Source of the DNA: the human T2T-CHM13v2.0 reference genome, Homo sapiens
NCBI RefSeq assembly: GCF_009914755.1
Contig: NC_060925.1
DNA length: 64,000 nt
Direction: 5' to 3' (one strand)
This document shows positions 41,668 to 43,066 of the stretch, piece after piece. The translations under genes were made by a program, and so were the position numbers. A model generated the notes under the pieces. The model searched no databases. It had not been told where the DNA came from and saw nothing but the letters and a program-made list of their open reading frames with translations. Positions within the stretch are counted from its first letter, which is position 1, and every line of letters starts with the position of its first letter.

Positions 41668-41975
41668 AGCTGGGTGCGGTGGCTCACACCTGTAATCCCA
41701 GCACTTTGAGAGGCCAAGGTGAGCGGATCAACTTGAGGCCAGAAGTTGGAGACCAACCTGCCAAACATGGTGAAACCCCATCTCTGGTAAAAATACAAAA
41801 TTTAGCCGGGTGTGGTGGCAGGCACCTGTAATCTCAGCTACTTGGGAGGCTGAGGCATAAGAATTGCTTGAATCCAGGAGGCAGAGGTTGCAGTGAGCCA
41901 AGATTATGCCACTGCACTCCAGCCTGGGCAAAGGAGCAAGACTCCGTCTCAAATAAGCAAACAAAAAAGAATAAA
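41668..41975 (+). mobile_element. Alu (S type), sense, IKBKE intron 20
   Basis: Dimeric Alu; TSD aaagag(a/g)ct. Confidence 0.93.
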
Positions 41976-42081
41976 GAGGCTTCTTTGGTGGGGCTGCAGA
42001 GGAGGGTGGGCCTCCCAGGAAAAGGGTCTGGGCAGGGCAACTTCCAGCCTCAGCCGCCTCTCCTGCCTCTGCCTTGGGCAG

Positions 42082-42153
42082 CATGCAAGAGCTCTGCGAG
42101 GGGATGAAGCTGCTGGCATCTGACCTCCTGGACAACAACCGCATCATCGAACG
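42082..42153 (+). CDS. IKBKE: IKBKE exon 21 ([24 protein letters not shown]), C-terminal coiled coil
   Basis: ggcag| acceptor, CG|gtaagg donor; 72 nt, symmetric phase 2-2. Confidence 0.95.
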
Positions 42154-42751
42154 GTAAGGAGCTTTCACCTTGTGTAGGTCAGGGCCGGGTCTTCAAGCTA
42201 CCCTTGCCTGGGGGTGGTGAAGAGTCCCCAAGCCTGCCCATGCAGGTTTGATGACACGTGTCCATTTTCGAAGAAGCCCTGTTGAAGCTTAGGCATTTTC
42301 CACAAATGAGTTGACATCCTCAGGAGGTGTAGGGTTCACTTACAGCCTTTAAAATGTGAGCCTCCATGCTGTCAGGGAGATGGGGGCCTGGAGGCATGGG
42401 GTTTGTGCCTGTGTCCAGCTCTGCACTCCATATGTACTCTGTGCTCAAGCTGCCCCAGATGCCTCCTTGAATCACAGCCATCCTCAGGATAGGTGCTGTT
42501 TTCATCCCCATGTGCTACCCCAGGAAGCCACAGCGCAGACACCTTGGATACGATGCCCAAGGCCGGTGTTTCTCTGGCCTTGTGGGGCTCCCGTCCCTCC
42601 TGCCAATGCTCATGGGCCAGCCCGGGGCTGCAGGATCATCTCCTGATTTGACTCCCCTCCTTGGGGTGCTGAGGGGTCATGAGAGGTTGGTGTGGGAACG
42701 CAACAGGGCTCCGACTCTGAGATTGAGATTTTGCATACCAGTAAAAGTTCT

Positions 42752-43066
42752 TTCTTTTTTTTTTTTTTTTTTTTTTTTTTTTTTGAGACGGAGTCTCACT
42801 CTGTCACCCAGGCTGGAGTGCAGTGGTACTGTGTCGGCTCACTGCAACCTCCATCTCCTGGGTTCAAGCAATTCTCCTGCCTCAGCCTCCTGAGTAGCCA
42901 GGATTACAGGTGTCCACCACCACACGCAGTTAATTTTTATATTTTTAGTAGAGACAGGGTTTCACCATCTTGGCCAGGCTGGTCTCAAACTCCTGGTCTC
43001 AGATGATCTGCCTGCCTTGGCCTCCCAAAGTGCTGGGATTACAGACATGAACCACTGCGCCCGGCT
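42752..43066 (-). mobile_element. Alu (S type), antisense, IKBKE intron 21
   Basis: T tail plus dimeric Alu; TSD-like taccagta..agttct. Confidence 0.93.

What the first reader, a model, noticed from the sequence alone, without database searches (positions are those of the whole stretch)
41668..43066. Inverted Alu pair brackets IKBKE exon 21: a structural route to C-terminally altered IKK-epsilon
Seen: a sense Alu (41668-41975) ends ~105 nt before exon 21 and an antisense Alu (42752-43066) follows it. The ~780-nt loop contains only this exon, which is 72 nt and phase 2-2, so skipping deletes 24 aa of the C-terminal coiled coil in frame. Skipping exon 20 instead gives ...[17 protein letters not shown]. 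Established: flanking inverted Alus can drive exon skipping and circularisation, and this coiled coil binds TANK/NAP1/SINTBAD adaptors. I recall reports of inhibitory human variants lacking exon 20 or 21. Inference: a primate-specific dsRNA switch, tunable by interferon-induced ADAR1 or by DHX9, sets the ratio of active to inhibitory kinase.
Basis: partly seen in the sequence, partly recalled or inferred. Interest (0 to 1): 0.7.

Follow-up and report, generated by a model that had tools for sequence, protein, structure and literature searches.

The report
Inverted Alu pair around IKBKE exon
Two old Alu repeats in opposite orientation really do bracket the small exon 21 of the human immune kinase gene IKBKE and could loop it out of the RNA, but the shortened proteins are already published and the link between the Alus and the skipping is still only a plausible, untested idea.

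Summary
A sense Alu (41667-41981) lies in intron 20. An antisense Alu (42752-43069) lies in intron 21. They are 80% complementary, with 784 nt between the arms, and that stretch contains only exon 21 (42082-42153, 72 nt, phase 2-2). The predicted duplex is -448.9 kcal/mol, against -214.4 +/- 5.6 for shuffled controls.

Skipping exon 21 gives an in-frame 692-aa protein.

Both variants are already in print as the inhibitory IKK-epsilon-sv1 and sv2 (Koop 2011, seen only through reviews). Exon loop-out by inverted Alus is also a known mechanism, shown for TBXT and surveyed genome-wide.

In the libraries I searched, nothing connects the two for IKBKE. That link is plausible but untested. Several points weigh against an exon-21-specific, interferon-tuned switch:
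- Exon 20, which is not bracketed, is skipped and induced together with exon 21.
- The exon 21 acceptor looks strong.
- The pair's complementarity is average for Alus.
- Such pairs are common around constitutive exons too.

Verdict: a real, ordinary structure and a reasonable hypothesis of modest novelty.

The parts
41428..41540 (+). IKBKE exon 20 (113 nt, phase 0-2). It lies outside the Alu loop. Skipping it shifts the frame and gives the 657-aa sv2-type protein.
   Evidence: Annotation. Its acceptor tract is weak, 12 of 22 pyrimidines.
41653..41664 (+). Left target-site duplication of the sense Alu.
   Evidence: 12 nt, 1 mismatch to 41967-41978.
41667..41981 (+). Sense Alu in intron 20, forming the 5' arm of the stem. 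The body runs to about 41966. The A-rich tail and right-hand target-site duplication occupy 41967-41978.
   Evidence: Non-CpG divergence from a local consensus is 10.5% and 41.7% of CpG-site positions are changed.
42082..42153 (+). IKBKE exon 21 (72 nt, phase 2-2). It encodes residues 683-705 plus parts of 682 and 706, and is the only exon in the loop.
   Evidence: Residue numbers are derived from the exon lengths. A functional helix at 686-705 is reported.
42736..42751 (+). Left target-site duplication of the antisense Alu.
   Evidence: a 10-nt core with 1 mismatch to 43070-43079. The extension to about 15 nt with one indel is my own reading of the printed flanks.
42752..43069 (-). Antisense Alu in intron 21, forming the 3' arm of the stem. 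It begins in the pre-mRNA with a run of 30 U (42755-42784).
   Evidence: Non-CpG divergence is 7.5% and 44.4% of CpG-site positions are changed.
41667..43067 (+). Predicted stem-loop in the pre-mRNA. 41667-41971 pairs with 42764-43067 (264 base pairs in the MFE fold), enclosing a loop of about 784 nt.
44275..45052 (+). IKBKE exon 22, the last exon. Its acceptor lies 1207 nt beyond the stem and is joined to exon 20 in the sv1 form.
   Evidence: Annotation.

Best explanation
Two Alu SINEs inserted independently, tens of millions of years ago, into introns 20 and 21 of IKBKE in opposite orientations. In the pre-mRNA they can zip into an imperfect duplex of about 300 bp. That duplex leaves exon 21 in a 784-nt loop and cuts the path from the exon 20 donor to the exon 22 acceptor from about 2.7 kb to about 1.3 kb.

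The most likely effect is a modest, constitutive rise in how often exon 20 is spliced directly to exon 22. That would contribute to the already described in-frame variant IKK-epsilon-sv1, which lacks the C-terminal helix needed for adaptor binding and interferon-beta induction.

Shown here: the elements, their pairing potential, the absence of competing partners nearby, and the frame and protein consequences.
Taken from print: that sv1 exists and is inhibitory, and that such pairs can cause skipping in other genes.
Inferred: that this pair contributes to sv1.

I read it as a contributor that sensitises exon 21, not as a regulated switch. The pair shows no sign of having been selected for this role.
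For: Geometry matches the validated cases.
- The Alus lie in the two introns next to one exon, 100-115 nt upstream and 599 nt downstream of it.
- The duplex is -448.9 kcal/mol against -214.4 +/- 5.6 for shuffles, with 264 inter-Alu pairs in the MFE fold.
- There is no competing inverted partner in either intron. The next sense Alu upstream is about 4.9 kb from the antisense Alu at 37583-37877, and it is the most diverged copy at 16%. The next antisense Alus downstream lie beyond the end of the last annotated exon at 45052.

Published support for the mechanism.
- A preprint reports that 91% of 57 exons flanked only by across-exon inverted Alu pairs were skipped more when Ku was depleted. In its re-analysis, 69.2% of DHX9-dependent exons with such pairs depended on DHX9 for inclusion (passages).
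- In TBXT, deleting either Alu removed the skipped isoform (passages).
- 11 of 11 chosen exons with an annotated skipped isoform and a hominoid-specific inverted pair within 1 kb showed skipping in human but not green-monkey cells (section read).

The skipped isoform exists and the exon fits the profile.
- The exon 21 skipped isoform is reported for humans.
- The exon is short at 72 nt, and short exons are more often skippable.
Against: - No experiment or dataset on this locus was available to me.
[quoted passage not shown] It found only a small stability difference between pairs around skippable and constitutive exons (d = -0.12), and a structure-skipping correlation only for exons with a weak acceptor and strong donor.
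- By my crude count, the exon 21 acceptor tract is strong, 17 of 22 pyrimidines. Only exons 14 and 17, of the 20 scored, have more.
- Exon 20 lies outside the loop. It is also skipped and rises together with exon 21 skipping after TNF and in dengue infection. This points to a shared trans-acting or exon-definition cause.
- Complementarity of the pair (80%) equals the mean of all 78 Alu pairs in the window (80.4 +/- 4.2; rank 45), so nothing suggests selection for pairing.
- IKBKE is absent from the main text and the held supplement of the genome-wide study. The held part of that supplement appears to be only a coordinate list without gene names, so this says little.
Confidence: 0.45

Rival explanations
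1. Bystander pair. The two Alus are neutral intronic insertions that may form double-stranded RNA, be edited and be unwound, but have no measurable effect on which mRNA is made. Skipping of exons 20 and 21 comes from weak definition of the short 3'-terminal exons and from trans-acting changes in spliceosome or SR/hnRNP activity on stimulation.
For: - sv1 and sv2 rise together after TNF and in dengue infection. There the authors link splicing changes to NS5 binding of the spliceosome (passages).
- Exon 20 is not bracketed by the pair and has one of the weakest acceptor tracts in the gene, 12 of 22.
- Mouse Ikbke shows regulated exon skipping and intron retention without Alus.
- Inverted pairs are common around constitutive exons and have a small overall effect.
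- The pair's complementarity is average.
Against: - The exon 21 acceptor and donor are not obviously weak, so its skipping needs some other cause.
- Across-exon pairs without competitors behave as skipping promoters in most tested cases.
Confidence: 0.4
2. The pair is a regulated double-stranded-RNA switch. Interferon-induced ADAR1 (by editing or binding) or DHX9 (by unwinding) changes how often the stem forms, and so sets the ratio of active IKK-epsilon to inhibitory sv1 as feedback on interferon induction.
For: - The stem is the kind of substrate that ADAR1 and DHX9 act on (reviews and preprint passages).
- The product sv1 is inhibitory for IRF3 signalling.
- Exon 21 encodes the helix at 686-705 that is needed for interferon-beta promoter activation.
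Against: - No editing, CLIP or knock-down data for this locus could be seen.
- In EV71 infection, the only exon singled out in the passages I read was exon 20.
- The reported inducers, TNF and dengue, move sv1 and sv2 together.
- In the Ku preprint, splicing changes at such exons were independent of MAVS signalling.
- Full-text searches joining IKBKE with Alu, ADAR1, A-to-I or RNA editing returned only reviews or unrelated papers. I judged this from the listings, plus one passage read.
Confidence: 0.1
3. Circularisation. The pair drives back-splicing of exon 21 into a 72-nt circular RNA, and the linear sv1 mRNA is the by-product.
For: Across-exon inverted Alus are the standard promoters of back-splicing.
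Against: - A 72-nt single-exon circle is much smaller than typical single-exon circular RNAs (recalled, not checked).
- The term 'circIKBKE' occurs in 0 papers.
- The 5 papers holding IKBKE, circRNA and Alu are, by title and abstract start, reviews or unrelated (listing only).
- Circular-RNA databases could not be consulted.
Confidence: 0.03
4. The antisense Alu acts alone. Its 30-U tract and cryptic splice signals attract U2AF65 or hnRNP C, or are occasionally used as an exon, and this disturbs intron 21 removal independently of the sense Alu.
For: - A run of 30 T at 42755-42784.
- AG dinucleotides ending at 42811 and 42823.
- A GT site at 42910 matching 5 of 9 donor consensus positions.
- Antisense Alus are the usual source of Alu exons and can suppress neighbouring exons.
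Against: - The supplied gene table lists no alternative exon between 42154 and 44274.
- The candidate donor is weak.
- The published single-Alu effect concerned an upstream, not a downstream, antisense Alu.
Confidence: 0.05

Closest known systems
TBXT exon 6 loop-out by the AluY-AluSx1 pair (Xia et al. 2024, PMC10901737; passages read)
   Same: Both have oppositely oriented Alus in the two introns flanking a single exon, a predicted Alu-Alu stem with the exon in the loop, and an in-frame skipped isoform with altered function. In both, one Alu lies more than 500 bp from the exon.
   Different: For TBXT, causality was shown by deleting either Alu and by rebuilding the pair in mouse, and one Alu is hominoid-specific. 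For IKBKE nothing has been tested. Both Alus look old and neither is in the hominoid-specific list. The neighbouring exon outside the loop is also skipped.
POLB exon 6b and other exons flanked by across-exon inverted Alu pairs that are kept in by Ku or DHX9 (preprint PMC12724504; passages read)
   Same: Both have a sense Alu upstream and an antisense Alu downstream of a short conserved cassette exon, with no competing pair inside either intron.
   Different: Those exons were identified from Ku-degron or DHX9 knock-down RNA-seq.
IKK-epsilon-sv1 and sv2 (Koop et al. 2011, pmid 21182093; paper not held, known only from reviews PMC9755862 and PMC6943080)
   Different: The passages I read say nothing about how the skipping arises. 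No intron or Alu is mentioned there, nor in the EV71 isoform paper (0 occurrences of 'Alu' or 'intron').
RABL5 exon 3 regulation by two intronic Alus (Lev-Maor et al. 2008; seen only as described in review PMC11263572)
   Same: Intronic Alus turn a constitutive exon into an alternative one, and pairing between a sense and an antisense Alu modulates the outcome.
   Different: In RABL5 both Alus sit in the same upstream intron, and pairing counteracts skipping. In IKBKE the pair spans the exon.

Membership tests
Alu SINE | 7SL/SRP-RNA-derived sequence in a roughly 300-bp two-monomer element | tested here: met
   Metazoa_SRP matches at 41805-41952 (+, 59.5 bits), 42783-42930 (-, 56.4) and 42949-43065 (-, 47.7). 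All are below the gathering score of 70, as expected for Alu. The left monomer of the sense copy gave no separate match at E <= 0.01; full-length similarity to the window's other Alus.
Alu SINE | A-rich 3' tail and flanking target-site duplications from retrotransposition | tested here: met
   duplications of 12 nt (1 mismatch) and a 10-nt core (1 mismatch). The latter extends to about 15 nt with an indel by my own reading of the flanks. The antisense copy has a T30 run, and the sense copy has an A-rich tail.
Inverted-Alu loop-out exon skipping (TBXT type) | Oppositely oriented Alus in the upstream and downstream introns of one exon | tested here: met
   with the supplied exon table. Exon 21 is the only exon between the arms.
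Inverted-Alu loop-out exon skipping (TBXT type) | Predicted stable inter-Alu stem that outcompetes local folds | tested here: met
   -448.9 against -214.4 +/- 5.6 kcal/mol, and 264 inter-Alu pairs in the MFE fold. This is thermodynamic prediction only.
Inverted-Alu loop-out exon skipping (TBXT type) | A natural mRNA isoform lacking exactly the enclosed exon | not testable with these tools
   No transcript data were available here. Reviews report it for human cells and a dengue study detected it. The supplied gene table cannot show skipping.
Inverted-Alu loop-out exon skipping (TBXT type) | Skipping is lost when either Alu is removed or the pairing is broken | not testable with these tools
   This needs genome editing or a minigene. 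Searches found no such experiment for IKBKE.
Inverted-Alu loop-out exon skipping (TBXT type) | Skipping is confined to lineages that carry both Alus | not testable with these tools
   No primate or rodent genomes or transcriptomes are held.
Inverted-Alu loop-out exon skipping (TBXT type) | Weak 3' acceptor with strong donor, the class in which stability tracked skipping genome-wide | tested here: inconclusive
   By crude counts only, since MaxEntScan was not available: acceptor tract 17 of 22 pyrimidines (high for this gene) and donor 6 of 9 consensus matches. This suggests the exon is not in the weak-acceptor class.
Inverted-Alu-driven circular RNA | A detected back-splice junction of the enclosed exon or exons | not testable with these tools
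   'circIKBKE' occurs in 0 papers. No circular-RNA database was on hand.
ADAR1-edited intronic inverted Alu duplex | Clusters of A-to-I sites in both arms | not testable with these tools
   No editing catalogue or RNA-seq was on hand. The structural precondition, a long duplex with arms less than 1 kb apart, is met.

The most novel reading that the evidence does not exclude
A pre-ape Alu pair gave Old World primates a built-in brake on interferon induction. When the duplex forms, exon 21 is looped out and the dominant-negative IKK-epsilon-sv1 is made. Proteins that handle double-stranded RNA and change during infection (ADAR1, DHX9, Ku, NF90) shift that balance. Under this reading, the cell's own dsRNA-handling state feeds back on a kinase of the dsRNA-sensing pathway, and mouse models lack this layer.
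Probability: 0.1. Interest if true: 0.6.

Novelty: new member of a known kind. Interest (0 to 1): 0.33.

Why it matters
IKK-epsilon drives interferon induction and is an oncogene. Its C-terminally altered variants act as inhibitors. If the Alu pair produces one of them, three things follow:
- Part of the control of this kinase would be restricted to primates and missing from mouse models.
- It could be tuned with antisense oligonucleotides that block Alu pairing.
- It would add an immune-signalling example to the short list of proven Alu loop-out events.

If the pair is a bystander, the locus is one of many thousands of ordinary inverted Alu pairs.

Tried and rejected
- A PDB sequence search with the 23 in-frame residues of exon 21 gave 0 matches at E <= 10. 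The query is too short to say anything.
- The primary paper on the splice variants (Koop 2011) is not held. All statements about it come from reviews.
I reached that reference through other papers instead.
- 'circIKBKE' returned 0 papers.
- Searches joining IKBKE with circRNA/Alu (5 papers), with A-to-I/ADAR1/inverted Alu (230 papers at 3 of 4 terms; only one held IKBKE, a review) and with RNA editing/Alu (7 papers) gave nothing on this locus. I judged this from the listings, apart from the single passage of PMC8259905 read.
- Four papers from the IKBKE exon-skipping search were irrelevant once I read the passages. The last of these did lead to the dengue study.
I could not see whether IKBKE exon 21 is among the Ku-dependent exons, or which mouse exon is skipped.
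- I considered whether the pair shows excess complementarity, as a sign of selection, and rejected it: it ranks 45th of 78 Alu pairs.
Those collections are viral and prokaryotic and cannot inform a human intron.

Full report
**What is there**

Reading 41100-43300 and searching 41000-44500 for inverted repeats shows one long inverted pair. Its arms are 41734-41975 / 42760-43001 (242 nt, 80% complementary, 784 nt between them), continued by 41667-41733 / 43001-43067 (67 nt, 81%). Of the 4 pairs reported, the third is a cross-match between Alu monomers. The fourth is a 30-nt, 70% pair of no weight.

Both elements are Alus.
- Three of the 6 Rfam matches at E <= 0.01 are to metazoan SRP RNA, in the expected orientations (59.5, 56.4 and 47.7 bits, below the gathering score of 70).
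- The other three Rfam matches are sub-threshold hits to two Alu-derived microRNA families.
- A blastn of the sense copy against the window finds the other Alus at about 70-82% identity.
- Each copy is flanked by a target-site duplication, and the antisense copy begins with 30 T. They are therefore two separate retrotransposition events.

Against a majority consensus of 13 full-length Alus of the window, the sense copy differs at 10.5% of non-CpG positions and 41.7% of CpG-site positions. The antisense copy differs at 7.5% and 44.4%. Both are old.

A published list of hominoid-specific Alus has no entry in the interval where these two should lie. I placed that interval from the GRCh38 gene span quoted. 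The genome build of the list is my assumption, and the held file is cut, although its chromosome 1 rows appear complete. The pair therefore probably predates the apes.

**The exon and the proteins**

Using the supplied exon table, a script gave the following.
- Exon 21 (42082-42153) is 72 nt and phase 2-2.
- The full protein is 716 aa.
- Leaving out exon 21 gives 692 aa in frame, with one changed residue at the junction.
- Leaving out both gives 646 aa.

From the exon lengths, exon 21 encodes residues 683-705 plus parts of 682 and 706. [quoted passage not shown] The second is a putative helix (PMC3983252, passages). Exon 21 is essentially that helix.

**Pairing potential**

Cofolding the two Alus as RNA gives -448.9 kcal/mol. 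The two self-folds give -112.2 and -102.7. Thirty dinucleotide shuffles of one arm give -214.4 +/- 5.6.

The MFE fold of the contiguous 1773 nt from exon 20 to beyond the antisense Alu (-881.0) contains 264 inter-Alu pairs running from 41667:43067 to 41971:42764. It is 219 kcal/mol better than the two halves folded apart. This is thermodynamics only. It says nothing about folding during transcription or about bound proteins.

**Competitors**

Within the IKBKE gene span the sense Alus start at 20153, 21862, 23633, 37583 and 41667. The antisense copies start at 29947, 32134-32443 (fragments) and 42760. Further antisense copies from 46281 onward lie beyond the end of the last annotated exon at 45052.

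Neither intron 20 nor intron 21 holds another inverted partner. By this map, exon 21 is the only IKBKE exon bracketed singly by an inverted pair in its two adjacent introns.

**Is the arrangement unusual?**

It is not. The pair's identity (79.9-80.5%) sits at the mean of all 78 pairwise comparisons among the 13 Alus (80.4 +/- 4.2; rank 45). Any two Alus would pair about as well, and nothing suggests selection for pairing.

A genome-wide study (Denisko et al., NAR 2026, PMC13019027; abstract, sections 20, 21, 23 and 24 and passages read) reports the following.
- It folded 49,891 Alu pairs within 1 kb of exons: 22,619 inverted and 27,272 non-inverted.
- Of these, 28,620 flanked skippable and 21,271 flanked constitutive exons.
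- Inverted pairs were enriched near skippable exons.
- The stability difference between the two exon classes was small (d = -0.12).
- Stability correlated with skipping only for exons with a weak acceptor and strong donor.

**What is already known**

Two reviews (PMC9755862 and PMC6943080, passages) describe the work of Koop et al. 2011.
- Both dimerise with the full-length kinase and inhibit its activation of IRF3.
- Both fail to bind TANK, NAP1 and SINTBAD, and both are induced by TNF.

I could not read the primary paper.

The exon-20-less form is also a RefSeq isoform. It rises in EV71 infection, and the passages I read single out only exon 20 (PMC8172566, abstract and passages). That paper never uses the words 'Alu' or 'intron'. 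Dengue infection raises sv1 and sv2 together (PMC5004807, passages).

Loop-out skipping by inverted Alus is established.
- In TBXT, deleting either Alu abolished the skipped isoform (PMC10901737, passages).
- 11 of 11 selected human exons with hominoid-specific pairs were skipped in human but not green-monkey cells.
- A preprint reports that Ku and DHX9 keep such exons included (PMC12724504, passages).

**What is not in print, as far as I could search**

I found no link between these Alus and IKBKE splicing, editing or circularisation (the scope of each is given under Tried and rejected). IKBKE is absent from the main text and from the held part of the supplement of the genome-wide study. It is also absent from the main text of the Ku preprint, whose supplement I could not open.

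**Weighing**

For a contribution of the pair to sv1:
- The geometry matches proven cases.
- There is no competing partner.
- The exon is short, and a skipped isoform is known.
- Success rates are high where such pairs have been tested.

Against, or at least against specificity:
- Exon 20 is skipped and co-induced although it lies outside the loop. Its acceptor tract is weak (12 of 22 pyrimidines), which would explain its own skipping.
- The exon 21 tract is strong (17 of 22). Its donor matches 6 of 9 consensus positions (crude counts, not MaxEntScan).
- Mouse Ikbke shows infection-regulated exon skipping (PMC13367058, section 5 read) and intron retention on hnRNP F knock-down (PMC8299563, one passage).

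I put the chance that the pair measurably raises exon 21 skipping at about 0.45. A pure bystander role is at about 0.4.

**Verdict**

The recalled literature is real. The proposed mechanism belongs to a known class and is testable but untested at this locus.

The novelty lies only in applying that class to IKBKE exon 21. If true, it would be a new member of a known kind, with some relevance for primate-specific control of interferon induction.

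Noticed in passing
window 44275-44308 (exon 22 coding part): The window's allele encodes leucine at residue 713, the fourth residue from the C-terminus. From memory, the usual reference protein has proline there, and this is a common missense variant. I did not check that recollection with any tool.
   Followed up: no
window 42755-42911: The antisense Alu carries the usual ingredients of an Alu exon: a 30-U tract, AG dinucleotides ending at 42811 and 42823, and a GT at 42910 matching 5 of 9 donor consensus positions. 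The supplied gene table lists no exon there.
   Followed up: partly
window 41428-41540 and its acceptor: Exon 20 is the exon missing from the RefSeq short isoform. It has one of the weakest polypyrimidine tracts of the 20 coding exons, 12 of 22, with only exons 3 and 9 lower. That alone could explain its skipping.
   Followed up: partly
window 39278-45891, minus strand: The single intron of the antisense lncRNA IKBKE-AS1 (41239-45756 by the supplied table) contains both Alus and IKBKE exons 20-22 (exon 19 only in part). Its second exon overlaps IKBKE exon 18 and part of exon 19. Antisense transcription could influence splicing or editing of this 3' region. I did not examine this.
   Followed up: no
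window 41803-41854, 41871-41930, 42805-42864: There are sub-threshold Rfam matches to the mir-1268 and mir-3135 families inside the Alus (54.7, 41.5 and 47 bits against gathering scores of 83 and 80). These are Alu-derived families, and the matches are not evidence of microRNA genes here.
   Followed up: no
window 43147-43170: A run of about 20 A lies in intron 21, about 80 nt after the antisense Alu. It may be the tail of another old retroposed fragment. It is not classified.
   Followed up: no
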